IMG/VR virus record: IMGVR_UViG_3300032285_000913 | Length of the DNA: 20,000 nucleotides | Direction: 5' to 3' (one strand) | Source: an uncultured virus (IMG/VR IMGVR_UViG_3300032285_000913) | Taxonomy: Duplodnaviria; Heunggongvirae; Uroviricota; Caudoviricetes | Shown here: one piece after another, positions 2,532 through 20,000 of the stretch | How positions within the stretch are numbered: the stretch's first letter is position 1 | Layout: each line of letters begins with the position of its first letter | The notes under the pieces: generated by a model | The model's input: the letters and a program-made list of their open reading frames with translations, nothing else | What the model was told of the DNA's origin: nothing | Databases searched by the model: none | Program-made: the position numbers and the translations under genes

Positions 2532-2536
2532 GACAA

Positions 2537-4237: not shown

Positions 4238-4656
4238 TGGATAATGAATTAACTATGGACCCAACAGAAGACGAATTGTTTGAATGGGAATCATTGTCTG
4301 AAAGACAACAAGAGATGGCAGAAAATACTGCTGAGATTGTTCTTAAGTTTGGTATGTTTAATCAAGGCTCTGAAAAAGATGGTGCTCACTATTTTGATGG
4401 TAGCAAGAACCCATTTAAGTCTGAGGGCGTAATGTGTAAAAATTGTATCTTCTACAACGAAGAGGCTGCACAGTGTGTGGTAGTAGAAGGAAGCATTGAC
4501 GAAGAAGGTCTTTGCAAACTTTGGGTAATTCCAGAGGATGAACTGAATGAAACACCTGAGCAAGAGGCACAGGAAGACGCTACAGGCTATGAGATGGCAC
4601 AGAAGTCATTATGGTCTGGTGCATTTGACCCAAGGAGTGTGAATAAAATTGGCTGA
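4237..4656 (+). CDS. HiPIP-like 4-Cys Fe-S domain protein
   Basis: Y...CKNCIFY-x6-CVVVEGSI-x3-GLCKLW matches the high-potential iron-sulfur protein Cys pattern. Confidence 0.6.
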   Translation: MDNELTMDPTEDELFEWESLSERQQEMAENTAEIVLKFGMFNQGSEKDGAHYFDGSKNPFKSEGVMCKNCIFYNEEAAQCVVVEGSIDEEGLCKLWVIPEDELNETPEQEAQEDATGYEMAQKSLWSGAFDPRSVNKIG

Positions 4657-5248
4657 TACATATAAACCAACAGGAGCAATGGCTGCTGCTGCTCGTAAGG
4701 CTATTAAGTTTAAGGAAGATGGCAAGGCTAATGGTGCTGGAACTAACGTAGGCTGGACTCGTGCTCACCAACTTGCATCTGGAGAATCTCTCAGTCTTGA
4801 TACTGTTAAGCGTATGTATTCATTCTTCTCTCGTCACGAAGTAGACAAGAAGGGCAAGGACTGGGGCAACCAGGCTAACCCATCTAATGGATACATTATG
4901 TGGCTTGCATGGGGTGGAGACGCTGGATTCTCTTGGAGTCGTGCTATCGTAAACCGTGCAATGGACAAAGAAATCTTTGCTGACTTTGGTAGAGATTATT
5001 CCAGAGATGAAACAATTATGCTTAAGGGTGTAGGCGTTGGTGACATGGTCACTTGGGGTTCTTCTGGCGGTAACGCAACAGGTAAAATTATTAAGATTGT
5101 TCGTAATGGAAAATATAATGTTCCAGATTCATCATTCACAATTACTGGTACACCAGAAGACCCTGCTGCTGCTATTCGTGTATACCAAGATGGAAAGCCA
5201 ACCGATACTGTCGTTGGTCACAAATTAAGTTCTCTACGCAAGAAGTAA
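4649..5248 (+). CDS. Phage protein with C-terminal Tudor/SH3-like (DUF2945-like) domain
   Basis: TTG start; N-domain TVKRMYSFFSRHE...WGGDAG; C-domain VGDMVTWGSSGG.ATGKI. Confidence 0.65.
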   Translation: MADTYKPTGAMAAAARKAIKFKEDGKANGAGTNVGWTRAHQLASGESLSLDTVKRMYSFFSRHEVDKKGKDWGNQANPSNGYIMWLAWGGDAGFSWSRAIVNRAMDKEIFADFGRDYSRDETIMLKGVGVGDMVTWGSSGGNATGKIIKIVRNGKYNVPDSSFTITGTPEDPAAAIRVYQDGKPTDTVVGHKLSSLRKK

Positions 5249-5251
5249 TGC

Positions 5252-5280
5252 TTGACAATCAAGTACCTTTCCTGTAAAAT
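5252..5280 (+). promoter_or_regulatory. Sigma70/SigA promoter
   Basis: TTGACA-N17-TAAAAT. Confidence 0.75.
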
Positions 5281-5304
5281 AGACATATAAAACATTGGAG
5301 CATA

Positions 5305-5475
5305 ATGGAACACAGTCTATTTGACGTGGTCTTTGGAATAGACCATATAATTGCAGAATTCTTTTGGAATGCCGTATTCGCACTTGTCGTATATGGATTC
5401 ACAAAGGCTAGAACGCTTCGCAAGATTCACAAGTATGTGGATAGCAAGCACGGAGTAGAACACGAGGAGTACTAA
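5305..5475 (+). CDS. Small membrane protein (56 aa, not in ORF track)
   Basis: MEHSLFDVVFGIDHIIAEFFWNAVFALVVYGFTKARTLRKIHKYVDSKHGVEHEEY; GGAG RBS; stop overlaps next ATG. Confidence 0.65.
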   Translation: MEHSLFDVVFGIDHIIAEFFWNAVFALVVYGFTKARTLRKIHKYVDSKHGVEHEEY

Positions 5476-5762
5476 TGGAAATCAGTAAAGAATTTACACA
5501 GGCGGTAGCCAAAACATATGCAGAAGCAGAAGAGTTGCTTATTCGTAAGCACAAAGACTATGGACCAAAGAATATTTCTGGTAGTCCAGGTGGTCCACTA
5601 AATGGTTTGCGTGTCCGTATGCACGATAAGTTGGCTAGAATTAACAATCTTATTGATTCTGGAGCAACACCAGAGAACGAAAGTCTTCGTGACTCATTCA
5701 TTGACATGGCTAACTATGCTTTAATTGCAATGTTGGTTATTGACGGTGACTGGGATAAATAA
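5475..5762 (+). CDS. DUF1599 / nucleotide modification-associated domain 1 protein
   Basis: K.KDYG...RM.DK..R......ESL.DS..D.ANYA motif. Confidence 0.8.
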   Translation: MEISKEFTQAVAKTYAEAEELLIRKHKDYGPKNISGSPGGPLNGLRVRMHDKLARINNLIDSGATPENESLRDSFIDMANYALIAMLVIDGDWDK

Positions 5763-5776
5763 GGTATACTAGATAT

Positions 5777-6355
5777 ATGAGCAATCCAACAGAATGGGAT
5801 ATCTCTGGCGGTAACTTCAATAAGCCAGTTGAATTCCCAGAAACAATTAATACTGATATTAGTAAGAATACAGTAGATAATTTTACTAAAGTTCCAAGTA
5901 TGGTGGTTGAAGCACCAGTGGTAGTAAAGAAGTCTAAGCGTATCAATCCAGATGCCCTGCCTGTTCTATATACAGCAGTTGCACTTGTGACCATCCTCAT
6001 GATTTCATCATTCGTGGTTTCATTCAGTGGTATCTATGAGGTATCTGCATGGACAGGACTACCAACAATCCTACAATGGCTACCAGCATTCTTTATTGAT
6101 GCTGCTATTCTTGCCTATACCATTTCACTTGTGGTGTTTAAGGCTCGTGGAGAAAGTACATGGCGAACATTAGCAGGACTAACTGGCTTTGCTGCTATGT
6201 CAGTTGTTGCTAACGTAGCACATACGCTAAACTATTGGAATGGCAATGTCACAGACTATCGTGGCTGGATTGGTGTGGCTATTACTGCTGCTGCCCCTAT
6301 CGCTGTTCTACTTGCATCAGAAGAAATTACACGTCTAGCATTCGAAAAGGAGTAA
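5777..6355 (+). CDS. DUF2637-like multi-pass membrane protein (leaderless)
   Basis: Four TM segments, SF..SF..I....W..P..ID motif, ANVAH, APIA.L; TATACT 6 nt before ATG. Confidence 0.65.
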   Translation: MSNPTEWDISGGNFNKPVEFPETINTDISKNTVDNFTKVPSMVVEAPVVVKKSKRINPDALPVLYTAVALVTILMISSFVVSFSGIYEVSAWTGLPTILQWLPAFFIDAAILAYTISLVVFKARGESTWRTLAGLTGFAAMSVVANVAHTLNYWNGNVTDYRGWIGVAITAAAPIAVLLASEEITRLAFEKE

Positions 6356-6358
6356 ATA

Positions 6359-6670
6359 ATGCTAAAAGCACCAGAAGATATTATCATTATTAAAAAAGAA
6401 AAGAAAACTAACGAACCAGAAAAATCATCAAGTGGACTATTAATAATGTCCAATAGTGATGATGAAGACTCAAAGAACATCGGCACTGTTGTTCTAGTTG
6501 GCGAGGGTAGACAACTGCGTAGCGGTGTCCGTGTTCCAATGGAAGTAAAGGTTGGAGACAAGGTCATGTATAACCCAGGTGGCGTTATGAAATTTAAGCA
6601 TGAGGGAGAAGACTACCTGTCTATGTTTAGTGTTAGCGTATTAGCAATTCTGGAGAGTGATGATGAATAA
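6359..6670 (+). CDS. groES: GroES-like co-chaperonin
   Basis: SSGLLI, GTVVLVGEG, PMEVKVGDKV.Y, EGEDYL..VLAIL. Confidence 0.88.
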   Translation: MLKAPEDIIIIKKEKKTNEPEKSSSGLLIMSNSDDEDSKNIGTVVLVGEGRQLRSGVRVPMEVKVGDKVMYNPGGVMKFKHEGEDYLSMFSVSVLAILESDDE

Positions 6671-7352
6671 GATTAGTGTTCTTGACGAAGGCTATGTGCG
6701 TCTTGTAGATACGCTTGGAGACGACCTTTCAATTGTAAATGCTGCTCGTGTATCTTATGCAAAAGAGTCTGGCGTATTTGAAGACCGTGATGCTAAACTA
6801 ATCAAGTTTCTATTGCGTGAGGGACACACCTCACCATTCCGTCATGCTGCCCTAACATTTGAAGTTTATGCTCCATTGTTTGTGGCACGTCAGTGGTGGA
6901 AGTATGCTGTAGGTTCAACACACGTTGACGACCAGAATGGCTGGAATGAATCTTCACGTCGTTACATTACGGAAGATGAACAGTTCTATGTTCCACAGGT
7001 TGACGAGTGGCGTAGCAAGCCTGAGAATAGCAAGCAGGGTAGCGGAGAGCCAGTCAATGATGCACTTGGTCATGTATATACAAATAAACTAATAGAGATT
7101 ATTGCTAAAGGTACTACATGGTATCACGAGGCTATGGATGATGGTATTGCACCAGAACTAGCACGTTTGTTCCTACCTGCTTATGGTATGTATGTTCGCT
7201 GGCGATGGACAACATCTCTACAGGGTGTTCTTACATTCCTTGACCAAAGGCTTGAGCATGATGCACAGAAGGAAATCCAGGACTATGCAATCGCTGTTAA
7301 GGATTTGGCACATCAGGCATTCCCAGAAACATTTAAGGCGTTGCATAACTGA
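6657..7352 (+). CDS. thyX: Flavin-dependent thymidylate synthase
   Basis: IVNAARVSY, HTSPFRH, P.FVARQW, NESSRRY, APELAR..LP, R...AQ.EI; true start may be 6663. Confidence 0.95.
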   Translation: MMMNKISVLDEGYVRLVDTLGDDLSIVNAARVSYAKESGVFEDRDAKLIKFLLREGHTSPFRHAALTFEVYAPLFVARQWWKYAVGSTHVDDQNGWNESSRRYITEDEQFYVPQVDEWRSKPENSKQGSGEPVNDALGHVYTNKLIEIIAKGTTWYHEAMDDGIAPELARLFLPAYGMYVRWRWTTSLQGVLTFLDQRLEHDAQKEIQDYAIAVKDLAHQAFPETFKALHN

Positions 7353-7864
7353 TGCCAGGTTCGATGCCAGAAGGTAAAGACCTTGCAATGTATTGGATTG
7401 AAAATAAAATCAATCCACAAACTGTTTTAGATGTTGGTGCTGGCATTGGCACTTACTCATTGCTTTTCCGCAAGCATAACTTTGTTCCAAAACTTCTAAA
7501 TGCTATTGAGGTTTGGGAACCATATATTAAAGAATATGAATTATTAAATAAATATAAAAATGTATTTAACGTGGATGTTCGTGAGTGGGGAGACTGGGAC
7601 TATGATTTGGTTATTCTAGGAGACATTCTAGAACATATGAGCAAAGAAGAAGCCCTAGAGTTGTGGAACAGGATTTCAAAAAAGGCACGGTACGCAATCA
7701 TATCTATTCCTATTATTGATTGTCCACAGGGTCATGAACATAACAACCCTTATGAAGAACATATTAAAGATGATTGGACTACACAAGAAGTCTTGGAGTC
7801 TTTCAGCCACATTGTTGACCATAATGAATATTCTGTTGTTGGAGTTTTCTTAGCAAAGTTTTAA
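7352..7864 (+). CDS. Class I SAM-dependent methyltransferase
   Basis: VLDVGAGIG motif I; YDLVILGDILEHM. Confidence 0.88.
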   Translation: MPGSMPEGKDLAMYWIENKINPQTVLDVGAGIGTYSLLFRKHNFVPKLLNAIEVWEPYIKEYELLNKYKNVFNVDVREWGDWDYDLVILGDILEHMSKEEALELWNRISKKARYAIISIPIIDCPQGHEHNNPYEEHIKDDWTTQEVLESFSHIVDHNEYSVVGVFLAKF

Positions 7865-7870
7865 CAACTG

Positions 7871-7943
7871 CCCCTCGTAACTCAGTGGATAGAGTAGGAG
7901 CCTTCTAATCTCTTAGTCGCAAGTTCGATTCTTGCCGAGGGGG
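7871..7943 (+). tRNA. tRNA-Arg (anticodon TCT), CCA not encoded
   Basis: Acceptor CCCCTCG/CGAGGGG, D arm ACTC-AGTGGATA-GAGT, anticodon loop CTTCTAA, T arm GCAAG-TTCGATT-CTTGC. Confidence 0.92.
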
Positions 7944-7944
7944 C

Positions 7945-8628
7945 ATGAAAATTGGATTGATTATTCCCTGGAGAGAAACTCCAAGTAGATTAAGACCATT
8001 ACAGGCAGTGCTTGAATGGTATCAAACTAATCTACCAGACATTGAAATCATTTACGCCGATAAGCCAGGGGAATATTGGTCTGCTTCTGGTAGCCGTAAT
8101 TTAGGGGTCAGGAAGGCACAGGAGGCTCTCTGTGACGTTGTAATTTTGAATGATGCAGATACCCTACCAGAACTGAATTCGCTCCTAGAAGCCATAGATG
8201 CTGCCCAGTCTGATGGCATGATACATAACCCATACAGACTTTGTAAATACTTTGATATAGAGATGAGTGAGTTGTTCTACGCTGGCAAAGATATTAAACA
8301 ACTTAAACATACATTGTATACAGAAGCCAATGGTGGTATTTGGGTATGCACACCAGAGACATGGTGGAGTCTTGGCGGTATGGATGAAAAGTTTGTACAA
8401 TGGGGAGCAGAAGATTCAGCATTTGAATTAGCACACACAGTTATTAAGGGTAGTAAGTTTGTTAAGCATGATGGATATATTTATTGTCTAGGACATGAGG
8501 TTCAAATACATGACCCTGGATTCAATTATAATCAGATTAGAAACATCCAACTTTACTGGCTATACTATTCTGCATCTACACCAGAAAGAATGTTATCTTT
8601 AGTTAAACAAGAAAAGATGGAACTCTAG
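7945..8628 (+). CDS. Glycosyltransferase, GT2/GT7-like (GT-A fold)
   Basis: IIPWR, SRNLG, NDAD (DxD), GGMDEKFVQWGAED. Confidence 0.88.
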   Translation: MKIGLIIPWRETPSRLRPLQAVLEWYQTNLPDIEIIYADKPGEYWSASGSRNLGVRKAQEALCDVVILNDADTLPELNSLLEAIDAAQSDGMIHNPYRLCKYFDIEMSELFYAGKDIKQLKHTLYTEANGGIWVCTPETWWSLGGMDEKFVQWGAEDSAFELAHTVIKGSKFVKHDGYIYCLGHEVQIHDPGFNYNQIRNIQLYWLYYSASTPERMLSLVKQEKMEL

Positions 8629-8837
8629 ACTTCGCCTAGTTTTTCATAAGCCCAACCCAAGACTGCTGCAGCGACCTCGTCGCCCTCTTGCTCTTTAAGT
8701 GAAATAAGTTCTCTGAGTCTTTCAAAGAATTCAAAGCGTTCTTCTTCTCCGCCAAGTGAATATAACTCAGCGTGGATATCATCAATCTTGTGGTACAAGT
8801 CGTCCACTCGTTCTTCAATATCTTGAATGTTTTCCAT
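8625..8837 (-). CDS. Hypothetical acidic helical protein (leaderless)
   Basis: TATAAT-N6-ATG on the minus strand; 70 aa. Confidence 0.7.
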   Translation of the reverse strand: MENIQDIEERVDDLYHKIDDIHAELYSLGGEEERFEFFERLRELISLKEQEGDEVAAAVLGWAYEKLGEV

Positions 8838-8856
8838 ACTTTAATTATACTACTCT

Positions 8857-9240
8857 TTAGAATCCGCTGTTGGATTCAAATACAGACCAGAACTTTTCCA
8901 TGTCTGGAACATCATCAGGATGGATAGCCTTAATGCCTTCGGCTTCGTAAGCCTTTCTAGCACCAGCGTTGTCGTCAATTGCCAGGGTAGCGTCATGCAA
9001 CTTAGCAGCAGCCTCACGCTTCCACTTATTAGAATCTCTATAAGAATAAGGGTTCATAAGAAGAGAGTTATACTTAATACCAATCTTCTTTAGAATGGCT
9101 TCGGTCTCCGCACGGTCTTTGCGTTCTCTGCCAGTTACGATAATTACTCTAGTCTTAAGAGAGTTAACGTAGTCAATAGTTTTCTTGATAGGGTACTGCC
9201 CTGCTCGTAGAATGGTGTCATCAATATCACAAATAATCAT
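8857..9240 (-). CDS. HAD-superfamily phosphatase (PNKP phosphatase-like), leaderless
   Basis: CDIDDT motif I, VTGR motif II, K, IDD motif IV; TATAAT-N6-ATG. Confidence 0.85.
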   Translation of the reverse strand: MIICDIDDTILRAGQYPIKKTIDYVNSLKTRVIIVTGRERKDRAETEAILKKIGIKYNSLLMNPYSYRDSNKWKREAAAKLHDATLAIDDNAGARKAYEAEGIKAIHPDDVPDMEKFWSVFESNSGF

Positions 9241-9297
9241 GTATCTATTATATCAGAGACCCTGGACATTGTAAAGGATGTAGTGTATAATAGTATT

Positions 9298-9525
9298 ATG
9301 AATTGTCCCCTATGTAATAATCCAATGGTTGATGTGGTTTACGGATTCCCCACATTTGAAATGATAGAACTAGCCAAAGAAGATAAACTTGTATTAGGTG
9401 GTATACCTAAGCCATTTGACTTTAAGCCTACTCACTTTTGCTATGAGTGTCTTGAGCAGTATCCTCAGAATGAACCTGAGTACGACACTGACAGTCACAC
9501 ACCCACGTTTTCTCATGGTAAGTAA
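9298..9525 (+). CDS. Zn-ribbon protein (leaderless)
   Basis: CPLC...VYG.P...LGG...CYEC; TGGACA-N17-TATAAT (9263-9291) 6 nt before ATG 9298. Confidence 0.7.
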   Translation: MNCPLCNNPMVDVVYGFPTFEMIELAKEDKLVLGGIPKPFDFKPTHFCYECLEQYPQNEPEYDTDSHTPTFSHGK

Positions 9526-9583
9526 TAGAAGGTTTGCATGAGGCATGGTTGCCAGTCATACACCATCCGCATTTAGAACTCAT
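9428..9583 (-). CDS. Small Cys/His-rich protein
   Basis: MSSKCGWCMTGNHASC...WVCDCQC; last gene of a coupled minus-strand operon. Confidence 0.55.
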   Translation of the reverse strand: MSSKCGWCMTGNHASCKPSITYHEKTWVCDCQCRTQVHSEDTAQDTHSKSE

Positions 9584-9692
9584 CTTCGTCGTTAGACCAA
9601 TCCAAAATGTCTCTCTTGGAGTCACCTAGCCAAGCCAATAACAAAATGATTGGCAATCCAACAATAAGAAAAAGTATTTCTACCCAATTCAT
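9573..9692 (-). CDS. Small single-TM protein (39 aa)
   Basis: MNWVEILFLIVGLPIILLLAWLGDSKRDILDWSNDEDEF; ATGA coupling with upstream ORF. Confidence 0.55.
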   Translation of the reverse strand: MNWVEILFLIVGLPIILLLAWLGDSKRDILDWSNDEDEF

Positions 9693-9850
9693 ACTTCAAT
9701 ATCCTTTTCAATAAGAGCGATAACCCAATCAGAACAGACAGAATCTTGTTCCTCAAGCATCTTAATAATTTCTTTTATTGCATCCTCTTTAATGTGATGG
9801 CAACAGACACAGTCTGGACCATCGTAATAGGGGTTCTTAAAATCACGCAC
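9689..9850 (-). CDS. Small hypothetical protein (53 aa, GTG start)
   Basis: MRDFKNPYYDGPDCVCCHHIKEDAIKEIIKMLEEQDSVCSDWVIALIEKDIEV; overlaps both neighbours. Confidence 0.55.
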   Translation of the reverse strand: MRDFKNPYYDGPDCVCCHHIKEDAIKEIIKMLEEQDSVCSDWVIALIEKDIEV

Positions 9851-10019
9851 GGTAATTCCCACGGTTCATGCCAGCAATATATCCAGCCTGGAAAGCCAAT
9901 AACTCTGCCCTGGTTGGTGGGGAAGACAAACTAAGAATCCAATCCTCAGTATCCTTAACAGCCTTCTTTTTAATTGTATTGATAATACGCTCGTTATCTC
10001 TACGAGTCTTTCTATCCAT
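9843..10019 (-). CDS. Small hypothetical protein (58 aa)
   Basis: MDRKTRRDNERIINTIKKKAVKDTEDW...AFQAGYIAGMNRG; TAATG coupling. Confidence 0.6.
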   Translation of the reverse strand: MDRKTRRDNERIINTIKKKAVKDTEDWILSLSSPPTRAELLAFQAGYIAGMNRGNYRA

Positions 10020-10132
10020 TAGTTTACCTTTACTAGTCTACGCTTTGCAGGGTCAAAGACCTTTGGGCTTTTCTTAGAAGCCTTGCCATTCTGGCGGTTG
10101 CTATTGCGTGTTGATGTTTTCTTTGCAGCCAT
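10019..10132 (-). CDS. Small highly basic protein (37 aa)
   Basis: MAAKKTSTRNSNRQNGKASKKSPKVFDPAKRRLVKVN; abuts both neighbours. Confidence 0.55.
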   Translation of the reverse strand: MAAKKTSTRNSNRQNGKASKKSPKVFDPAKRRLVKVN

Positions 10133-10133
10133 A

Positions 10134-10328
10134 CTATTCTACCAAACTTTCTTCTGTTTTGTCAAATGGGAAAACATCATAACCAAAGCAAGCCTCAATG
10201 TATTTTCTGCGTAGGATATCTGGAATAATATTAACAATGTCTTGTCCTTCAATCTCCACAGAGTCTCCAGCAACCTCTACAACGTAGATGCGTTCTGGAT
10301 AAATGATGTACCGATATTTGTCTGTCAT
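10134..10328 (-). CDS. Hypothetical protein (leaderless)
   Basis: TATAAT-N6-ATG (MTDKYRY...) gives a better start than 10379. Confidence 0.65.
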   Translation of the reverse strand: MTDKYRYIIYPERIYVVEVAGDSVEIEGQDIVNIIPDILRRKYIEACFGYDVFPFDKTEESLVE

Positions 10329-10344
10329 ATTTATATTATAGCAC

Positions 10345-10373
10345 TTGACAATGACTTCTGTATGCCTTATAAT
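10345..10373 (+). promoter_or_regulatory. Consensus sigma70/SigA promoter
   Basis: TTGACA-N17-TATAAT, 6 nt before ATG 10380; back-to-back with a minus-strand -10. Confidence 0.85.
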
Positions 10374-10379
10374 GGACAC

Positions 10380-10574
10380 ATGGGAAAATTAAAAGATTTA
10401 GATGCACAAGGGGTTACTGACCTCACTTCATACCTTATCGGTATCATCAATGAGCGTGAGCGTTTCGTTGATTTCTTAGCAGCCGAAGCAAAGCGTACAG
10501 GGCTAGGCTTCATACAATATCAAACTATTCTAGAGTTCATTCAAAGTTCGGGCGAAAAGTTCGGCGGTGAATAG
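10380..10574 (+). CDS. Hypothetical protein (leaderless)
   Basis: MGKLKDLDAQG...; start defined by the promoter. Confidence 0.65.
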   Translation: MGKLKDLDAQGVTDLTSYLIGIINERERFVDFLAAEAKRTGLGFIQYQTILEFIQSSGEKFGGE

Positions 10575-10586
10575 AGGTCTATCCGC

Positions 10587-10615
10587 TTGACAAGCAAGCG
10601 AGTATCCTGTATAAT
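10587..10615 (+). promoter_or_regulatory. Consensus sigma70/SigA promoter
   Basis: TTGACA-N17-TATAAT. Confidence 0.85.
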
Positions 10616-10646
10616 AATATAAGGTCCATTAAACGAGAGAGAACGT

Positions 10647-11144
10647 ATGCAAACCTTTTTACCTTACAAAGACTTTGACAAGTCTGCACAAGCACTAGAC
10701 AGCAAGCGACTTAACAAGCAGATTCTAGAGTGCTACCAAATCCTAAAAGTACTATCCAACCCAGACCCACGAGCAGGATGGCGTAACCATCCAGCCGTGA
10801 AGATGTGGCGTGGCTATGAACACCTACTACTTGACTACACCATGTCTATGGTTAGAGAAGCAAATGAACGTGGCATTAAGACCGATAAGAACATGCAGAA
10901 CATTGTAGACCTTATTAACACCCACGCAATTGACTGGGGATTCGAAATCCCTGCTTGGTATGAAGATGATGTTAAGATGAAGCGTCTTACCACTACACAC
11001 AAAGCGAACCTATACAAGAAAGACCCAACATACTACTTTGAATTCTTTAGTGCGTTAGCGAAAAGCAACCCATGTTGCCCTGACCGTAAAGAACCTTGTA
11101 AGTATTATTGGGTTGCACATGAGGAAAATTATGCAGTTGCCTAA
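10647..11144 (+). CDS. Pyrimidine dimer DNA glycosylase / endonuclease V-like (MSMEG_6728-like)
   Basis: MQTFLPY..F..SA..LD.KRL.KQ..E..QI, W.NHPAV.MW.GY, H..NL..KDP.YY. Confidence 0.85.
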   Translation: MQTFLPYKDFDKSAQALDSKRLNKQILECYQILKVLSNPDPRAGWRNHPAVKMWRGYEHLLLDYTMSMVREANERGIKTDKNMQNIVDLINTHAIDWGFEIPAWYEDDVKMKRLTTTHKANLYKKDPTYYFEFFSALAKSNPCCPDRKEPCKYYWVAHEENYAVA

Positions 11145-11379
11145 GATATTTAAATGGCGTTTACGCCTAATCCAACAAGGTTACGACCTTGGTTGGGAAC
11201 ATGGCTATGAAGCAGGTATGGAAGAATGCCACAAGCAGATTATGGACAAGGTAAATAAGTTTGTTCATGATGTTAACTGGTTGAAAGAAGAACCATACAC
11301 TCGTAAAGAGATTATAGAAGCAATTAAGAAACACGAACCTGACCTAGAACCGATTGGATGGAACAATGGACATGAATAG
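11131..11379 (+). CDS. Hypothetical protein
   Basis: GAGGA RBS before MQLPK; G(Y/W)xxG repeats. Confidence 0.6.
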   Translation: MQLPKIFKWRLRLIQQGYDLGWEHGYEAGMEECHKQIMDKVNKFVHDVNWLKEEPYTRKEIIEAIKKHEPDLEPIGWNNGHE

Positions 11380-11527
11380 ATTATTAACTAATTTGGAAAA
11401 TGTAGTTAAAATTCAAACTGGAAATGAAATAATTCATTTTCTAGAAAAATTACAAAAAGAAGACCACAGCATTAATTTGTATGGTGCGATTGTTCTACTA
11501 AAGGAGAAGTATGGTTCATCTAACTAA
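11372..11527 (+). CDS. Small hypothetical protein (51 aa)
   Basis: MNRLLTNLENVVKIQTGNEIIHFLEKLQ...; fills the gap and overlaps both neighbours. Confidence 0.5.
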   Translation: MNRLLTNLENVVKIQTGNEIIHFLEKLQKEDHSINLYGAIVLLKEKYGSSN

Positions 11528-12107
11528 AATCTACACCAAGACTGGTGACGATGGTACAACTGCTCTAGGAGATAATTCCAGGGTATCTAAGACTGACCCA
11601 CTAATTGAAGCATATTCCACAGTAGATGAAGCAAACTCTGCTATTGGTATGATTATGGCTTTTGGCACTATGGGGTCGAATGGGCACAGTGTTTTGCATA
11701 GGCTACAGAATGAACTCTTTGATGTAGGTGCAGACCTATGCACACCCATCGTAAAGGAGCATGACGGTAAACTGCGAGTAACAGAGCAGATGGTTAAGAA
11801 TCTTGAATTAGATATTGATTTATATAATATAACGCTAAAACCGCTAAACTCCTTCGTAATGCCAGGTGGCAATCAAACATCAGCACTGTTCCACAATGCC
11901 AGAACAATTGTTCGTAGGGCAGAGCGTAGAGCATGGGCGGTAGATGAATTCAGGTTCACAAACCCTCTAGTAAAACAATACCTAAATAGACTATCAGACC
12001 TAATGTTCGTAATGGCTAGGTTCTACAATGAGCATGAAGAACTATGGAATCCAGGTGGAGAACAACATCCACCAAAGCGATTCAGGGATATAGGTAACGC
12101 AGAATGA
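11511..12107 (+). CDS. pduO: ATP:cob(I)alamin adenosyltransferase, PduO type
   Basis: IYTKTGDDGTT.L...RV.K, VDEANS.IG, QN.LFD.GADL, F..PGG, ARTIVRRAER, YLNRLSD..F..AR. Confidence 0.93.
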   Translation: MVHLTKIYTKTGDDGTTALGDNSRVSKTDPLIEAYSTVDEANSAIGMIMAFGTMGSNGHSVLHRLQNELFDVGADLCTPIVKEHDGKLRVTEQMVKNLELDIDLYNITLKPLNSFVMPGGNQTSALFHNARTIVRRAERRAWAVDEFRFTNPLVKQYLNRLSDLMFVMARFYNEHEELWNPGGEQHPPKRFRDIGNAE

Positions 12108-12307
12108 TGCATGATGAAGGACTAAATATTCTTGCTGCGATTGACAATGCCTATAAAACAGGTGTCAATGAGGAGCGAGACCGTATAGTTAAATTGCTAG
12201 AAAGTCTTGAGCATTCAACTACACATAGTATCTGGGACTATAATGATAAAGTAGCCTCAGTAATTGCACTTATTAAAAATTCGGGGCATACAAAAGATGC
12301 TTCGTAA
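12104..12307 (+). CDS. Hypothetical protein
   Basis: ATGA coupling; AY..G...ER.RI..LL motif common in small phage proteins. Confidence 0.6.
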   Translation: MMHDEGLNILAAIDNAYKTGVNEERDRIVKLLESLEHSTTHSIWDYNDKVASVIALIKNSGHTKDAS

Positions 12308-17299: not shown

Positions 17300-18316
17300 T
17301 TACGCCATTACAACCGACTGAACCACCTTCATCAAGCGGTTCTTCTCTGCGTTGATTACAGGGTCAAAACCAGAAGCCGAAGCGTAAATGCTTTCGTTGC
17401 TTCCACCACGAGCAGACCTGTGCCAGTCTAGGCGTTCGGTCAATGCGTTGTAAGCACCCCAAGCAGTGCCAGCAATGGTGTCGTTGAACTGTCCAATGTA
17501 GATTGCGTTTAGCAGGTCAATCTTGCTGTCGTATTTCTTGAATGAACCCTTAGCGTCTTTTTCAGGGGCAGGGTAAGCAAGAGCAACAATCTGGTCAAAC
17601 TGTGCCTTAGTGATTTCCTTTTCAATCATAGCGTTAGCCATAGAAGAAAACTCGTCAATGTAAGTCTTAGCAAGACCTAGTGCTTCACGAGCAACTGCGA
17701 TTTTACCTTCGGCAGTTGAAGTGTGGCGGATTTTGAAAGTCTGCTTCGCTGCTTTCTTACCCTTGAATGAAGATAGAGCAAGGTTGAGAGTGTTAGCACA
17801 GACTACACGAACAGGCGTAATGCTTGCCTGAATAGCGATAGAACCGTCGTGGCTAGTGTTGATAAGAAGGTAGTTGTCAATCTTGTCAGCACGACCATTA
17901 GGGTCTAGGGTAATGCTGTCAGCAAGAGCGATAGAGCCGAATACTTGACGACCACCCTTGATTGAGCCAGCAGTTTCCCAACGACCACCACCGTCTAGCA
18001 AGTTGTCGCCAAACGAAAATAGGTCTTCGTTTTGTAGTGGAACATAACGCTCACCAACAACACCGAGAACATCATTCTTGGTAGTGTCAAAAGGGTTAGT
18101 GCGAGTAACGAATGAGTAAGCCTTGTCGCTCTCAAAGGTTTCAGGAATGGTTACATCTTCAAGACGAACATTCCAGTTGTCAAGGTGAGCAAGTTTTAGC
18201 ATCTCTGCTGTATTGACTTGCTCTTCAAACACAGTGCCTAGATTGTGCCACGCTGGTTGGCGTAGTGAAGCAAATGCGGCTTCGCCATTAGCACCGATTT
18301 CGATTTCGTGAGCCAT
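17300..18316 (-). CDS. DUF932 family protein (phage/plasmid-like, TIGR03299-type)
   Basis: PAWH.LG, LGVVG.RY.P.QN, ETAGS..GG, YLL..SHDGS, TPVRVVCANTL, HT, GTAWGAYNA.TE..D. Confidence 0.9.
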   Translation of the reverse strand: MAHEIEIGANGEAAFASLRQPAWHNLGTVFEEQVNTAEMLKLAHLDNWNVRLEDVTIPETFESDKAYSFVTRTNPFDTTKNDVLGVVGERYVPLQNEDLFSFGDNLLDGGGRWETAGSIKGGRQVFGSIALADSITLDPNGRADKIDNYLLINTSHDGSIAIQASITPVRVVCANTLNLALSSFKGKKAAKQTFKIRHTSTAEGKIAVAREALGLAKTYIDEFSSMANAMIEKEITKAQFDQIVALAYPAPEKDAKGSFKKYDSKIDLLNAIYIGQFNDTIAGTAWGAYNALTERLDWHRSARGGSNESIYASASGFDPVINAEKNRLMKVVQSVVMA

Positions 18317-18357
18317 TTGTATCTCTTTCTCTTAGTGATTTATTTGTTGATAATACC

Positions 18358-18386
18358 ATTATAAGGCATACCACCGACATTGTCAA
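18358..18386 (-). promoter_or_regulatory. ATGTC-box promoter with perfect -35/-10
   Basis: TTGACA-ATGTCGGTGGTATGCCT-TATAAT. Confidence 0.88.
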
Positions 18387-18471
18387 TACCATTTAGCATT
18401 ATTTCTGGAAATATTTTTAGTCTTCGTAAACTGGGGCAGGTGGTGGGGGGCGCAGAAAAAACTGCGCAGCG

Positions 18472-18520
18472 AAAAAATCCCCCTGCTAACCAGCATCTAT
18501 CCAGACACTTCACAGGGGGA
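18472..18520 (-). terminator. Rho-independent terminator with long loop
   Basis: TCCCCCTG...CAGGGGGA followed by TTTTTT on the minus strand. Confidence 0.6.
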
Positions 18521-18580
18521 CTTCATCTGGTAGCCATAGTTTTTACCCTTCCCATTGCCACACCAGCCCAATGGTTTTGG

Positions 18581-18607
18581 AAGCCTTTTAGACACTTGCT
18601 TAGGTGT
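18581..18607 (-). ncRNA. Pseudoknot repeat, copy A
   Basis: ACAC-CTAAGCAA-GTGT-CTAAAAG-GCTT; compensatory AAGC/GCTT second stem. Confidence 0.6.
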
Positions 18608-18614
18608 TTGCGTT

Positions 18615-19067
18615 TTACAGCAGTTCTAGAACGCTGTTGTAAGCAGACGAAGTAATCGTCTCCTGCTCACTCATTTTGAGCAAACGCAGGGTCTTCTCCA
18701 ACTCTGCCTTTTTAGAACCATACTGCTGTCCGTAGTAGCCCTTTGGCTCTGGGTCTTGTGGCTCGGTTGGCTTTTCCAAACCAGCAACCAAGTCCTTACC
18801 AATGGTAAGTTCCAAAGCGTTGCGGTAGTTAGTGCTAACGCCAACCTTGTTGTCTTGGTCTTCGCTAGATAGCAACTCAGCACCACGCTTGGTTAGCAGG
18901 TCAGCAACAACAGCAACAACCTTTTCGGTGTATGCCTGTCGGTCTGCTACATACTGAGCCTTGCGAGCAGGGTAGGTAGCAATGTCTTCGTTGATTTGAG
19001 CAATCTTCTGCTCAATCATCTCAATGACTTTGTGGGTTGGGATTTTTACTGAAATGGCTCTTGCCAC
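18615..19067 (-). CDS. Hypothetical coiled-coil phage protein
   Basis: GTG start with AAGGAG RBS; 150 aa. Confidence 0.8.
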   Translation of the reverse strand: MARAISVKIPTHKVIEMIEQKIAQINEDIATYPARKAQYVADRQAYTEKVVAVVADLLTKRGAELLSSEDQDNKVGVSTNYRNALELTIGKDLVAGLEKPTEPQDPEPKGYYGQQYGSKKAELEKTLRLLKMSEQETITSSAYNSVLELL

Positions 19068-19108
19068 TTTATCTCCTTATTTGTTAGGGGTTATTTGTTG
19101 ATGTATTC

Positions 19109-19137
19109 ATTATACCTGATACCACAGACATTTATAC
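19109..19137 (-). promoter_or_regulatory. ATGTC-box promoter
   Basis: GTATAA-ATGTCTGTGGTATCAGG-TATAAT. Confidence 0.72.
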
Positions 19138-19154
19138 ACTTCGTGGTTGTGGTG

Positions 19155-19189
19155 TGAGCAGTTATTTTTGCCAGACATACTCAGGTCTG
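19155..19189 (-). ncRNA. Pseudoknot repeat, copy B
   Basis: CAGAC-CTGAGTAT-GTCTG-GCAAAAATAAC-TGCTCA. Confidence 0.65.
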
Positions 19190-19204
19190 CCCGATAAATC
19201 GGAC

Positions 19205-19366
19205 TTAGTTTAGGACAGTTCCCTGAGCCGAAGTCCAGTGTGGCTTTCCGTCAATGTCCAAACGAACACGGAATGAGCCGTTCTTGTTCTGTGCGATTTC
19301 CTGAACGATACCAACAAACTTGTTAGTCTTGGTCTCGTAGCGGTCGCCTACCTTGATTTCTGGCAT
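19205..19366 (-). CDS. Small SH3/KOW-like beta-barrel protein (53 aa, not in ORF track)
   Basis: MPEIKVGDRYETKTNKFVGIVQEIAQNKNGSFRVRLDIDGKPHWTSAQGTVLN; GAGAAAAGAG RBS; TTGACT-N17-TATAAT promoter (19430-19458). Confidence 0.72.
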   Translation of the reverse strand: MPEIKVGDRYETKTNKFVGIVQEIAQNKNGSFRVRLDIDGKPHWTSAQGTVLN

Positions 19367-19521
19367 TTGTTACTCTTTTCTCCCGAAGGGCTTGTATTGC
19401 TTGTAATACCAACTTTTGTTGATACTTCTATTATAAGGCATAAGCAGGGGAAAGTCAAGCCTTTTCGTAAACATTTTTAGTTTTTATTTTTAGATGTCTT
19501 GCTTCTCTTGCTTATGTATCC

Positions 19522-19550
19522 ATTATACAGGTAGCCACAGACATTGTAAA
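19522..19550 (-). promoter_or_regulatory. ATGTC-box promoter
   Basis: TTTACA-ATGTCTGTGGCTACCTG-TATAAT. Confidence 0.78.
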
Positions 19551-19619
19551 TAGTTTCAGGGGTTTCGTAACACAATCGTAACATAGGGCAGCCTGGATTT
19601 TTTTGCCCAAAAAAATGGG

Positions 19620-19838
19620 TGAGCAGTTTCAGACTTACTCAGGTCTCCGCCAATGTCATTTTTGAGCAACTCAGTATTGAACTTACAAGGCTAGGCTTAG
19701 GGGAGCAGTTTTACCAACTTGCTCAGGTTGTTTGCTTCATCAATAAGCCCTAATGCTTTTACAAGCAAAAATAAAAACATTAGAGAAAGGTTTCCATACC
19801 ACCTATAAGTTAGAGCCTTTTTAGGACTTGCTCAGGTC
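19620..19838 (-). ncRNA. Array of three pseudoknot repeats (C 19620-19646, D 19703-19730, E 19813-19838) with unique spacers
   Basis: AGAC-CTGAGTAA-GTCT-GAAAC-TGCTCA; CAAC-CTGAGCAA-GTTG-GTAAAAC-TGCTC; GAC-CTGAGCAA-GTC-CTAAAAAG-GCTC. Confidence 0.68.
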
Positions 19839-19863
19839 GCTCGGTAGAGAAAGAAAGGGAACT

Positions 19864-20000
19864 CTACCGAACTCTCCAATCTTCTACATCGTGGTCTACT
19901 TCAAGAACATCAGCACCATCAAAGTCGGTGTAGAACTCAACACGCTCAACATAGGTGCTGTCTGCCACTTCATCAGGGTCAGCACCATAAGGCACTTCGA
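19864..20000 (-). CDS. Hypothetical acidic protein (5' partial)
   Basis: Open frame ...EVPYGADPDEVADSTYVERVEFYTDFDGADVLEVDHDVEDWRVR-stop. Confidence 0.65.
   Translation of the reverse strand, partial: EVPYGADPDEVADSTYVERVEFYTDFDGADVLEVDHDVEDWRVR

What the first reader, a model, noticed from the sequence alone, without database searches (positions are those of the whole stretch)
18581..19838. Family of five co-varying RNA pseudoknot repeats, three arranged as a repeat-spacer array
Seen: five non-coding minus-strand elements share the form [P1]-CU(G/A)AG(C/U)A(A/U)-[P1']-A-rich linker-(U/G)GCU(C/U). P1 co-varies (GAC/GUC, CAAC/GUUG, AGAC/GUCU, CAGAC/GUCUG, ACAC/GUGU). The loop-tail pairing P2 also co-varies (GAGC/GCUC vs AAGC/GCUU). 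In copies B and C, P2 needs a G-U pair that only forms on the transcribed minus strand, which argues for RNA structure rather than a DNA operator. The topology is a compact H-type pseudoknot with a 2-nt L1 and an A-rich L3. Copies A, B and E lie just 3' of stop codons. E, D and C are separated by unrelated 82 and 56 nt spacers in an ORF-free stretch. I cannot assign it to an RNA family I know. Inference: a conserved handle for processing, stabilising or protein-loading a set of phage small RNAs. Alternatives are an exonuclease block or a decoy like the pseudoknot-repeat antitoxins of type III (ToxIN) systems that some phages mimic.
Basis: partly seen in the sequence, partly recalled or inferred. 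Interest (0 to 1): 0.88.

Follow-up and report, generated by a model that had tools for sequence, protein, structure and literature searches.

The report
Widespread phage RNA pseudoknot after genes
The five repeats are real copies of a tiny, uncatalogued RNA pseudoknot that phages of many bacterial groups place just after the end of a gene or a tRNA, probably to mark or protect RNA ends.

Summary
Observation confirmed and enlarged. The window holds exactly five minus-strand copies of a ~31-nt H-type pseudoknot: 4-bp P1 of free sequence closed by C-G, loop C-UGAGYA-W, linker ending AAAC, then UGCUCA.

- **Structure.** Both helices covary. In IMG/VR the tail UACCCA goes with the matching loop UGGGUA in 94 stretches, and with the commoner non-matching loop in 8.
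- **Not catalogued.** Rfam 15 has no match. Papers searched by motif strings gave nothing.
- **Spread.** More than 126 IMG/VR stretches carry it. So do prophage-like regions in genomes of many phyla, and cultured or named phages of Synechococcus, Methylophilales, Paracoccus, Mycobacterium and Christensenellales.
- **Position.** It lies on the sense strand and hugs the 3' end of the upstream unit. It starts 5-6 nt after a stop codon, even where 100 nt or more of free space follows, or 1-2 nt after a tRNA. Often a tRNA starts 2-13 nt behind it.

Best reading (about 0.35): a non-terminating module that protects or defines RNA ends. A new ribozyme, an RNase P mimic and an aptamer remain open. The ToxI-like decoy and "repeat-spacer array" readings are not supported.

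The parts
19812..19838 (-). Copy E. P1 19838-19836 pairs with 19827-19825. Loop 19835-19828 (CUGAGCAA). A-rich linker. P2 3' strand GGCUC(U) 19816-19812. Starts 25 nt after the TAG stop at 19866-19864.
   Evidence: 30 bits. Orthologues with a different P1 in L001, L002, L003 and L005.
19702..19730 (-). Copy D. P1 19730-19727 pairs with 19718-19715. Loop 19726-19719. Linker ends AAAC. P2 3' strand UGCUC(C) 19707-19702. No long ORF upstream.
   Evidence: 33 bits. No counterpart in L001-L005.
19620..19646 (-). Copy C. P1 19646-19643 pairs with 19634-19631. Loop 19642-19635 (CUGAGUAA). P2 3' strand UGCUCA 19625-19620, with one U-G pair.
   Evidence: 30.7 bits. No counterpart in L001-L005.
19155..19189 (-). 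Copy B. P1 19189-19185 pairs with 19176-19172. Loop 19184-19177 (CUGAGUAU). Long linker of 11 nt. P2 3' strand UGCUCA 19160-19155. Starts 15 nt after the TAA stop of the 53-aa ORF.
   Evidence: 15.9 bits; the long linker costs score. Orthologues in L001-L005 with P1 AUC/GAU, GAC/GUC, CAGAC/GUCUG and AAAGAC/GUCUUU.
18581..18607 (-). Copy A. P1 18607-18604 pairs with 18595-18592. Loop 18603-18596 (CUAAGCAA). P2 3' strand GGCUU 18585-18581. Starts 7 nt after the TAA stop of the 150-aa ORF.
   Evidence: 29.4 bits. Orthologues in L001-L004; three of them have loop GAGC with tail GCUU, the G-U intermediate.
19864..19998 (-). 3' end of an ORF that runs off the window; copy E follows it.
19205..19366 (-). 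53-aa ORF, no family found. Copy B follows it.
   Evidence: Homologues in 27 of 203 element-bearing loci.
18615..19067 (-). 150-aa ORF, no family found. Copy A follows it.
   Evidence: Homologues in 31 of 203 loci.
17300..18316 (-). DUF932 gene (338 aa). Here a G+C-rich hairpin followed by UUU follows it. In relatives L002 and L003 the same place holds the pseudoknot plus tRNA-Glu.
18471..18536 (-). Terminator-like hairpin with a U run, about 45 nt downstream of copy A.
   Evidence: Weak likeness to an Rfam terminator-bearing sRNA only.
19430..19550 (-). Two sigma-70-type promoters (19550-19522 and 19458-19430) downstream of copy C and upstream of the 53-aa ORF.
   Evidence: 11 of 12 consensus positions each

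Best explanation
The element is a cis-acting boundary module of phage transcripts. It is a compact H-type RNA pseudoknot set directly behind the 3' end of a functional unit (an ORF, a tRNA or a tmRNA).

It lacks the G+C-rich stem and U run of an intrinsic terminator, so RNA polymerase should read on into the next gene or tRNA. Later the long transcript is cut, for example by RNase P at a following tRNA or by host endonucleases in the G-poor stretch behind the element. The knot is then left as the end structure that shields the upstream RNA from 3'-to-5' exonucleases. It would also leave no naked RNA between the terminating ribosome and the protecting fold.

Shown here: the fold (by covariation), the strand, the placement rules, the wide spread, and the swap with a terminator-like hairpin. 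Inferred: that it blocks nucleases, that cuts fall where I say, and that the conserved loop and linker bases serve a tertiary (triplex-like) fold rather than a partner.
For: - **Fold.** On 109 copies, 97.4% of cells pair against 79.5% in shuffles, and 8 of 10 pairs have double changes. The loop/tail natural experiment gave 94 stretches against 8.
- **Sense-strand placement behind stops.** Among 258 distinct copies, 121 have the closing C of P1 within 5-20 nt of the stop of an ORF of at least 60 codons. Ten more ORFs end at the loop's own UGA. The antisense control gives 27.
- **Spacer.** The stop-to-P1 spacer peaks at 5-6 nt (18 + 24 of 187) and is never 0-1 nt.
- **Tied to the upstream unit.** Where the next ORF is 100 nt or more away, 34 of 124 copies still sit at 8-10 nt. 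Where it is 50 nt or less away, 16 of 91 do. Examples are Labelle and NatCom_6392: stop, 6 nt, P1, then about 200 nt of free space.
- **tRNA and tmRNA ends.** The element starts 1-2 nt after tRNA 3' ends in S-CRM01 (ARAGORN ends) and 3 nt after the encoded CCA in C48C1. In L113 it starts about 16 nt after a tmRNA match (with the element's place).
- **tRNA behind it.** In 35 of 309 descriptor hits a same-strand tRNA starts 2-13 nt behind it, so RNase P cutting would leave the knot at the upstream RNA's 3' end.
- **Natural swap.** Behind the DUF932 stop, the window and L001 have a G+C-rich terminator-like hairpin. L002 and L003 have the pseudoknot followed 3-6 nt later by tRNA-Glu.
- **Not a terminator.** There is no U run behind the element. 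The stretch behind it is G-poor (G 0.04-0.13 at +4 to +7).
Against: - **Weak helices.** Nested folding of the five window copies gives -2.2 to -8.1 kcal/mol, with z from -1.85 to +0.87 against shuffles. P1 is usually A+U-rich. Ordinary 3' stabilisers are long and G+C-rich.
- **Conserved unpaired bases.** The near-invariant L1 C, the junction A/U and AAAC, kept across phages of many phyla, look more like a catalytic core, a ligand pocket or a binding site than a plain roadblock.
- **tRNA trailers.** A protector right behind a tRNA has no clear benefit, because the trailer must be removed.
- **Redundancy at copy A.** A terminator-like hairpin lies about 45 nt downstream, which would make the knot redundant there.
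- **Limits of the counts.** Relatedness of contigs is not corrected. ORFs are simple stop-to-stop calls.
Confidence: 0.35

Rival explanations
1. A new, very small self-cleaving ribozyme that cuts at or next to its own 5' edge. It would trim transcripts just behind stop codons and tRNAs without any host enzyme.
For: - Covarying helices around a few near-invariant unpaired bases, a spread across phages of many phyla, one to several copies per genome, and placement flush against tRNAs are the pattern of phage ribozymes.
- Theta (minimal HDV-like) ribozymes sit within 5 nt of phage tRNAs (PMC10879173, passages read).
- Host independence would explain the wide host range.
Against: - At 31 nt with only two helices, it is smaller than any natural class I know of (recalled).
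- It has no nested double pseudoknot and no three-way junction.
- No Rfam ribozyme model matches, even at E up to 10.
- Spacing to tRNA ends varies (1-3 nt on the 5' side, 2-13 nt on the 3' side), so cleavage would not make mature tRNA ends.
- No conserved base lies upstream of P1.
Confidence: 0.15
2. A mimic of the tRNA acceptor arm that host RNase P cuts in the loop. This would punctuate polycistronic phage RNA in the way tRNAs punctuate mitochondrial transcripts.
For: - RNase P is universal, which would fit the host range.
- With P2 read as 5 bp, the loop offers U then G, with G paired to C, followed 3' by A then C. This resembles the U(-1)/G(+1):C(72)/R73-C74 context of pre-tRNAs (established knowledge).
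- A small pseudoknot aptamer with a 3' RCCA is cut by bacterial RNase P in loop 1 (PMC12710915; only the abstract in a search listing was seen).
- S-CRM01 copies do not show the A-C. Cyanobacterial RNase P is said not to use CCA (recalled).
Against: - The A-C after P2 was fixed by my search pattern. Among 90 copies not retrieved by it, A is only 54% and the next C 42%.
- The third position is C in only 44%, even in the pattern-biased set.
- An RNase P site 2-13 nt before a tRNA, or filling a tRNA-tRNA spacer, would be redundant.
- There is no T-loop-like end.
Confidence: 0.1
3. A ligand- or protein-binding aptamer. It would act either as a riboswitch for the next gene or as an abundant decoy or sponge carried in highly expressed early and tRNA transcripts.
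For: - Its size and layout match the smallest riboswitch aptamers: a hairpin, a loop-to-tail helix, and an A-rich linker able to lie in the P1 groove.
- The helices are marginally stable, so folding could depend on a partner.
- Junction bases are invariant.
- In 91 of 258 copies the next ORF starts within 50 nt.
- Several copies are clustered in strong early units, as in the window and S-CRM01.
Against: - No riboswitch model matches.
- The ribosome-binding site is not part of the fold.
- Many copies are followed by a promoter, a terminator-like hairpin or a tRNA rather than an ORF.
- Placement follows the upstream unit, not the downstream one.
- Downstream genes are diverse.
- No partner gene travels with it. 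The commonest neighbour, DUF932, is in 42 of 203 loci.
Confidence: 0.12
4. A translation-linked device. The knot sits at the ribosome's mRNA entrance when the stop codon is in the A site. From there it would tune termination, block sliding or re-initiation, or shield downstream RNA from ribosomes.
For: - The 5-6 nt spacer equals the spacer of frameshift and readthrough pseudoknots (established knowledge).
- It recurs in unrelated phages that have free space downstream.
- The architecture (1-nt L1 of C, 1-nt junction, A-rich linker) resembles compact viral recoding pseudoknots (recalled).
Against: - There is no three-base periodicity. Distances 8, 9, 10, 11 and 12 occur 24, 21, 10, 11 and 12 times.
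- I saw no slippery heptamer before the window copies.
- 103 of 258 copies are more than 30 nt from any long ORF's stop, or have none.
- Copies behind tRNAs and a tmRNA cannot act on ribosomes.
Confidence: 0.1
5. An operator of the gene-32 type, that is, a nucleation site where a phage single-strand-binding protein loads to repress the next gene.
For: - It has the same topology as the T-even gene 32 pseudoknot: one base over a 6-7 bp stem 2 (recalled).
- One S-CRM01 copy ends 27 nt before the gp32 start.
- One metagenomic copy precedes an SSB gene.
- A G-poor tract follows the element.
Against: - Only 1 of 89 downstream proteins scanned is an SSB. Adding the S-CRM01 gp32 case gives two in all.
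- The S-CRM01 gp32 copy has only 3 P2 pairs.
- The model finds nothing above 16 bits in T4.
- Most copies precede unrelated genes, tRNAs or promoters.
Confidence: 0.05
6. A mimic of a type III (ToxI-like) antitoxin, or a double-stranded DNA operator made of the inverted repeat TGAGCA-N11/12-TGCTCA.
For: - ToxI units are small pseudoknots, and phages can carry mimics (established knowledge).
- The two P2 strands form an inverted repeat at a nearly fixed distance.
Against: - There are no uniform tandem units and no toxN- or abiQ-like gene among the 17 window ORFs scanned.
- Genome hits are single copies in prophage-like DNA.
- A DNA operator does not explain P1 covariation between the upstream flank and the spacer, which is 99.3% paired with up to six pair types.
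- It does not explain the 27 U-G pairs in P2 either, nor the strict sense orientation.
Confidence: 0.03

Closest known systems
Autoregulatory pseudoknot in the gene 32 mRNA leader of T-even phages
   Same: A phage intercistronic H-type pseudoknot of about 30-36 nt. One base bridges a 6-7 bp second stem, the first stem is short, and an unstructured A/U-rich tract follows (recalled). One S-CRM01 copy lies 27 nt before gp32. Rfam holds no model of the gene 32 structure (PMC10690425, passage read), so a blank in Rfam does not separate the two.
   Different: No sequence likeness was found: the best T4 match is 15.8 bits, on the + strand at 57026-57052; I did not check which gene lies there. The present family follows many unrelated genes and tRNAs, and its placement follows the upstream unit.
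preQ1-I riboswitch aptamer (Rfam RF00522)
   Same: A minimal H-type pseudoknot with an A-rich 3' linker ahead of the second helix, and conserved junction bases.
   Different: No match to the Rfam model, even at E up to 10. The junction is 1 nt rather than several. It is not in leaders of queuosine genes. The ribosome-binding site is not in P2.
Theta (minimal HDV-like) ribozymes beside phage tRNAs (PMC10879173)
   Same: A small structured RNA set within a few bases of tRNA genes in tailed phages, with a proposed role in tRNA trailer processing (passages read).
   Different: Theta ribozymes have the nested double pseudoknot of HDV-like ribozymes. This element has two helices only and no match to ribozyme models. 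It is also found behind protein genes in phages that show no tRNA nearby.
ToxI, the RNA antitoxin of type III toxin-antitoxin systems
   Same: A small pseudoknot RNA, present in several copies, with known phage mimicry.
   Different: ToxI is a head-to-tail array of equal units beside its toxin gene and is specific to each system. Here copies are dispersed, differ in P1, have no toxin gene nearby, and share one loop and tail across phyla.
Intercistronic processing and stabilising hairpins (T7 RNase III sites, REP and other 3' stabilisers)
   Same: Structured RNA between co-transcribed genes that defines or protects RNA ends without stopping transcription. This is the working model here.
   Different: Those are long, mostly G+C-rich hairpins without conserved loop sequence, and each is confined to one phage or host group. 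This is a 31-nt pseudoknot with conserved unpaired bases, shared by phages of many phyla.

Membership tests
Type III antitoxin RNA (ToxI-like) | Head-to-tail array of units of equal length | tested here: not met
   Copies are 77-82, 52-56, about 430 and about 550 nt apart and differ in P1. Relatives lack D and C. Collection hits are almost all single.
Type III antitoxin RNA (ToxI-like) | Adjacent ToxN/AbiQ-type endoribonuclease gene | tested here: not met
   None among the 17 window ORFs scanned against Pfam, nor among 108 upstream and 89 downstream ORFs of other loci. PADLOC was not run.
preQ1-I riboswitch | Match to the curated covariance model | tested here: not met
   No match at gathering score or at E up to 10 on the region and on 20 further loci.
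preQ1-I riboswitch | Lies in the leader of queuosine or preQ1 genes, with the ribosome-binding site in P2 | tested here: not met
   Downstream genes are diverse and none is a queuosine gene. Shine-Dalgarno sequences lie about 8-20 nt behind P2 by eye in the sequences.
Gene 32-type translational operator pseudoknot | H-type knot with a 1-nt first loop over a 6-7 bp second stem | tested here: met
   L1 = C and P2 of up to 6 bp, supported by covariation. The comparison with the T-even structure is recalled.
Gene 32-type translational operator pseudoknot | Sits in the leader of the phage ssDNA-binding protein gene | tested here: not met
   True for 1 of 10 S-CRM01 matches and for 1 of 89 downstream proteins. 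True for none of the window copies.
HDV-like/theta, pistol, twister, hammerhead and hatchet ribozymes | Match to the family model, and that family's helices | tested here: not met
   No Rfam match. Only two helices covary, and no conservation was found beyond the 31 nt.
Self-cleaving ribozyme (any) | Site-specific self-scission | not testable with these tools
   Needs an in vitro transcription and cleavage assay.
Intrinsic terminator | G+C-rich hairpin followed by a U run | tested here: not met
   The scan flags none of the five copies. T is 0.32-0.40 at +3 to +7 and stems are A+U-rich.
-1 frameshift or readthrough stimulator | Slippery site or leaky stop 5-8 nt upstream, with an extended frame | tested here: not met
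   The spacer matches. But there is no frame preference, I saw no slippery heptamer before the window copies, and copies also follow tRNAs. No systematic scan for slippery sites was run in other loci.
RNase P substrate (tRNA-like) | Acceptor-like helix followed by a 3' RCCA | tested here: inconclusive
   After a 5-bp P2, A is 54% and the next C 42% in 90 copies free of pattern bias. Cleavage is not testable here.
CRISPR-like repeat-spacer array | Near-identical repeats at regular spacing | tested here: not met
   P1 differs in every copy, spacing is irregular, and the array is absent in relatives.

The most novel reading that the evidence does not exclude
The 31-nt knot is a catalytic RNA, the smallest natural self-cleaving ribozyme class. 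Phages of many phyla would use it to cut their transcripts a few bases behind stop codons and tRNAs, independently of host RNases.
Probability: 0.12. Interest if true: 0.95.

Novelty: new variant of a known kind. Interest (0 to 1): 0.78.

Why it matters
If this holds, it is a new and very widespread phage RNA family. The scans found hundreds of copies in phages and prophages of Cyanobacteria, Proteobacteria, Actinobacteria, Firmicutes, Bacteroidota and Patescibacteria.

The family has an unusually clear structural signal for its size and a precise placement rule. It would add a host-independent 'punctuation mark' to how phage polycistronic RNAs and tRNA clusters are organised.

It offers a 31-nt part for synthetic operons, whether as an insulator, a stabiliser or, if catalytic, a cleaver. 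It is present in culturable phages (Mycobacterium phage Labelle, Paracoccus phage ParMal1, cyanophage S-CRM01), so it can be tested directly.

It would also give annotators a marker for true gene ends and strand. In the Christensenellales phage record the element implies a + strand ORF where only - strand ORFs are annotated.

Tried and rejected
- **Rfam 15.** The whole window at gathering score, the region at E up to 10, and 20 other loci at E up to 10 gave nothing at the element.
- **Literature.** Motif strings and word searches found no description. The catalogue of about 10,000 viral candidate RNAs (PMC10690425) may hold it unnamed. Six supplementary files held as text were searched and gave nothing. 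Files 1, 2 and 4 could not be searched.
- **A partner gene.** All-against-all clustering of ORFs in 203 loci found no family present throughout. The top clusters were DUF932 in 42 loci, the 150-aa ORF in 31 and the 53-aa ORF in 27, all from one phage lineage.
- **boxA/nut-like reading of UGCUC.** Rejected, because the tail covaries with the loop (UACCCA, UGUCCA, UGCCUA, UAUUCA).
- **Anticodon-loop, T-loop and K-turn likenesses.** None fits by inspection.
- **Readthrough in a fixed frame.** Rejected for lack of three-base periodicity.
- **Compaction as the cause of the short spacer.** Rejected.
- **The window's genome.** No whole genome is held. The nearest record, G001 (28.8 kb), holds only copies A and B.
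- **Phages without the element.** It was not found (under 20 bits) in Streptomyces phage Persimmon, Syn9, S-PM2, P-SSM2, P-HM2 or T4.
- **Earlier notes of this scan.** None holds the motif strings.
Full report
**What is in the window**

Reading the minus strand of 18300-20000 shows five elements of one form. Each has a short stem P1 closed by C-G and an 8-nt loop C-U-R-A-G-Y-A-W. The return strand of P1 follows, then an A-rich linker, then (U/G)GCU(C/U).

Their spans are E 19838-19812, D 19730-19702, C 19646-19620, B 19189-19155 and A 18607-18581.

The core CTRAGYAWG occurs 6 times in the 20 kb, against 1.54 expected, and 0 of 200 shuffles reach 6. Five of these are the copies. The sixth (4556, + strand) has neither stem nor tail.

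I built a covariance model from 109 copies: 107 from other contigs plus window copies A and E. It finds the five at 33 to 15.9 bits (E 2.6e-8 to 0.0033) and nothing else above 8.6 bits. Copies B, C and D were not in the model.

A, B and E start 7, 15 and 25 nt behind the stops of a 150-aa ORF, a 53-aa ORF and an ORF that runs off the window. D and C have no long ORF before them.

**The structure is real**

Five related IMG/VR contigs, found through the 150-aa ORF (72-90% identity), keep copies at the places of E, B and A, but with other P1 sequences. At B, for example, P1 is CAGAC/GUCUG, AUC/GAU, GAC/GUC or AAAGAC/GUCUUU.

At A, the window and L001 have loop AAGC with tail GCUU. L002-L004 have GAGC with GCUU, which is the G-U intermediate.

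On 109 aligned copies, 97.4% of cells pair against 79.5% in shuffles. Eight of 10 pairs show changes on both sides, and sliding the partners by 1-3 columns drops pairing to 23-37%.

- P1's three outer pairs take four to six pair types each; the closing pair is C-G in 105 of 106 rows.
- P2 can be read as 6 bp (UGAGCA/UGCUCA), with 27 U-G pairs at one position.

These rows were chosen with P1 of at least 4 pairs, so the percentage paired is partly circular. The unselected figure is: of 212 pattern or regex hits, 186 have P1 of at least 3 pairs.

P2 also covaries as whole variant sets: UGGGUA/UACCCA, UGGACA/UGUCCA, UAGGCA/UGCCUA and UGAAUA/UAUUCA.

I tested this directly in IMG/VR.

- Tail UACCCA with the matching loop UGGGUA gives 94 stretches (39 distinct sequences, 91 with P1 of at least 3 pairs).
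- The same tail with the far commoner but non-matching loop UGAGCA gives 8 stretches. Three of these are chance hits with P1 of 1 pair. The other five share one element sequence and look like one lineage.

The G-U pairs and the orientation make this a structure of the sense-strand RNA.

The consensus is N-[P1, 4 bp]-C-[UGAGYA]-W-[P1']-NNAAAC-[UGCUCA]-C, 31 nt in all. The distance from loop to tail is nearly fixed: 124 distinct copies have exactly this geometry. No conservation extends beyond these 31 nt.

**It is not catalogued**

Rfam 15 gives only a tRNA (7871-7943) in the window at gathering score. It gives nothing on the elements at E up to 10, either here or in 20 other loci.

Full-text searches with motif strings and with words found no description.

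A catalogue of about 10,000 viral candidate RNAs (PMC10690425; passages read) may contain it unnamed. Six of its supplementary files were searched and gave nothing; files 1, 2 and 4 could not be searched.

**It is widespread**

In the bacterial set, 85 of 141 candidates have P1 of at least 3 pairs. The other 56 look like the chance matches expected for 596 Gb. The 85 come from records titled Saccharibacteria and other Patescibacteria, Clostridia, Erysipelotrichaceae, Bacilli, Bacteroidia, Polynucleobacter and other Proteobacteria, Actinomycetes and others.

Two complete chromosomes hold one strong copy each. The neighbouring genes there match phage protein families.

Among deposited phages, the model finds the following.

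| Phage | Matches |
|---|---|
| Synechococcus phage S-CRM01 | 10 at E up to 0.1 (7 below 0.003) |
| Methylophilales phage Melnitz-3 | 1 strong |
| Phage C48C1 | 1 strong, 1 weak |
| Paracoccus phage ParMal1 (T7-like) | 1 |
| Cyanophage S-RIM4 | 1 |
| Mycobacterium phage Labelle | 1 |
| Christensenellales phage NatCom_6392 | 1 |

Nothing reaches 20 bits in Streptomyces phage Persimmon, Syn9, S-PM2, P-SSM2, P-HM2 or T4.

The window's own host is unknown. The window has no close match among deposited phages. Its DUF932 protein is at best 54% identical to those of Streptomyces phages.

**Placement**

*Behind stop codons.* Among 258 distinct copies, 121 have the closing C of P1 within 5-20 nt behind the stop of an ORF of at least 60 codons. 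In 10 more, the ORF ends at the loop's own UGA. The same count on the antisense strand gives 27.

The spacer from stop to P1 peaks at 5-6 nt (18 and 24 of 187) and is never 0-1 nt. This is about where the mRNA leaves a ribosome that holds the stop codon in its A site (established knowledge).

The short spacer is not due to crowding. Where the next ORF is at least 100 nt away, 34 of 124 copies still sit at 8-10 nt (stop end to closing C). Where it is within 50 nt, 16 of 91 do. Labelle, NatCom_6392 and ParMal1 all read stop, 6 nt, P1.

*Next to tRNAs.* In S-CRM01, copies start 1-2 nt after tRNA-Tyr, tRNA-Met and a tRNA-Ser that ARAGORN finds. They end 2-4 nt before tRNA-Met and tRNA-Leu (by ARAGORN ends), and a weaker-scoring copy (25.8 bits) ends 2 nt before tRNA-Asp. 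One copy fills the whole tRNA-Met/tRNA-Leu spacer.

Over all loci, 39 of 309 descriptor hits have a same-strand tRNA within 30 nt. In 35 the tRNA starts 2-13 nt behind the element, and in 5 the element follows a tRNA by 1-2 nt. Some loci overlap and many belong to one lineage.

In L113 a copy lies just behind a permuted tmRNA.

*Flanking genes.* Upstream genes are varied. DUF932 accounts for 14 of 108, HSP20 for 4, and there are single cases of a Mu-type capsid protein, a ribonucleotide reductase and others.

Downstream genes are varied too. They include four AAA_33/polynucleotide-kinase-like proteins, an SSB, helicases, a primase, ArdC, Mom and MerR.

No gene family accompanies the element throughout.

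**A natural swap**

Behind the DUF932 stop, the window and L001 carry a G+C-rich terminator-like hairpin and then a promoter.

L002 and L003 carry the pseudoknot instead, followed 3-6 nt later by tRNA-Glu.

So where a co-transcribed tRNA follows, a knot without a U run stands where a terminator-like hairpin otherwise would.

**Mechanism**

I take the element to be a boundary module of the upstream RNA unit. It does not stop RNA polymerase. After the transcript is cut (by RNase P at a following tRNA, or by endonucleases in the G-poor stretch behind it), it remains as the end structure that shields the upstream RNA. It also closes the gap between the last ribosome and the protecting fold.

This fits the strand, the stop-hugging, the tRNA contexts on its 3' side, and the swap.

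Several things count against it.

- The helices are weak. Nested folding of the five window copies is no better than shuffles (-2.2 to -8.1 kcal/mol, z from -1.85 to +0.87).
- The invariant unpaired bases (L1 C, junction A/U, AAAC) suggest catalysis, a ligand or a specific partner.
- A protector directly behind a tRNA makes little sense.
- Copy A has a terminator-like hairpin about 45 nt further on.

I therefore give it 0.35 and keep these rivals:

| Rival | Confidence | Note |
|---|---|---|
| New very small self-cleaving ribozyme | 0.15 | Context resembles that of theta ribozymes (PMC10879173, passages read), but the fold does not |
| Aptamer or sponge | 0.12 | |
| RNase P mimic | 0.10 | The A-C after P2 was partly forced by my pattern and is 54% and 42% in unbiased copies |
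| Translation-termination device | 0.10 | No frame periodicity |
| Gene-32-type operator | 0.05 | One S-CRM01 copy lies 27 nt before gp32, but with only 3 P2 pairs |
| ToxI-like decoy or DNA operator | 0.03 | |

**Comparison with what is known**

In shape it is closest to the T-even gene 32 pseudoknot and to the smallest riboswitch and viral recoding pseudoknots; those comparisons are recalled. In context it is closest to intercistronic processing and stabilising structures, and to ribozymes that sit beside tRNAs.

It fails the defining tests of ToxI arrays, preQ1-I, the known ribozyme classes, intrinsic terminators, CRISPR arrays and frameshift sites (see Membership tests).

I file it as a new family: a new variant of the known kind 'structured intercistronic or 3'-UTR phage RNA'. 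Its function is still open.

**Limits**

- Relatedness among contigs is uncorrected.
- ORFs are simple stop-to-stop calls.
- Pseudoknot energies were not computed.
- No RNA data were available.

Noticed in passing
window minus strand: 19550-19522, 18386-18358 and 17221-17193, and by eye near 19128-19100, 15900-15870 and 13395-13365: One shared early promoter of the form TTTACAATGTCGGTGGTA-n-TGTATAAT recurs before successive small genes. The scan scores three of these sites at 11-12 of 12 consensus positions. The same box is seen in relatives L001-L003.
   Followed up: partly
window minus strand near 18460, 17250, 15990 and 13150: The 8-bp palindrome CTGCGCAG, usually within TTTCTGCGCAG, sits just behind terminator-like hairpins and ahead of the promoters. 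It may be an operator or another DNA site. Relatives show similar TCTGCGC/TGCGCA boxes.
   Followed up: no
window minus strand 13100-12600, and upstream of several promoters (for example 18430-18395, 15945-15905): Many copies of a TTACGAA word, often as TTACGAA-n-ACTAAAAAT-n-TTCCAGAAA. They are dense in a non-coding, very A+T-rich stretch around 12800-12700 that separates the two gene orientations. This may be an origin or a control region.
   Followed up: no
window minus strand: before the starts at 18316, 17161, 16721, 15840 and 15268: A purine-rich box AAGAGAAAGAGA, which is not a standard Shine-Dalgarno sequence, precedes at least five start codons at a fixed distance. The 150-aa ORF instead has AAGGAG.
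   Followed up: no
window 19785-19748 (-): A 38-nt long hairpin (15 pairs counted by the scan) lies between copies E and D. The E-D-C stretch may be one structured non-coding RNA or a 3' UTR.
   Followed up: no
window 19674-19663 (-): CUGAG-UUG-CUCA between copies D and C. It looks like the two P2 strands without the P1 hairpin between them, possibly a decayed copy.
   Followed up: no
L113 351-626 (-), IMG/VR contig: A permuted (two-piece) tmRNA match of 64 bits, cut by the locus end, lies just upstream of an element copy.
   Followed up: no
L385 (PV036419.1 about 6000-6140): The record annotates only tiny minus-strand ORFs here. Yet a plus-strand frame ends in TAA 6 nt before the element, as in other phages. 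The annotation may be on the wrong strand.
   Followed up: partly
L269 about 720-808 and L268 about 1470-1536 (S-CRM01): tRNA-like sequences with T arms stand directly before two element copies but are not annotated in the record. ARAGORN calls the first one tRNA-Ser.
   Followed up: partly
window + strand 1-12300: The opposite arm encodes ThyX (6657-7352), a DenV-type pyrimidine-dimer glycosylase (10647-11144), a cobalamin adenosyltransferase (11511-12107), a glycosyltransferase (7945-8628) and one tRNA (7871-7943).
   Followed up: no
L034, L110, L122, L382: In four loci the gene right behind the element is an AAA_33/polynucleotide-kinase-like ATPase, and in L034 an HSP20 gene precedes it (L110 and L122 upstream not scanned). 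A link to RNA-end chemistry is possible but untested.
   Followed up: no
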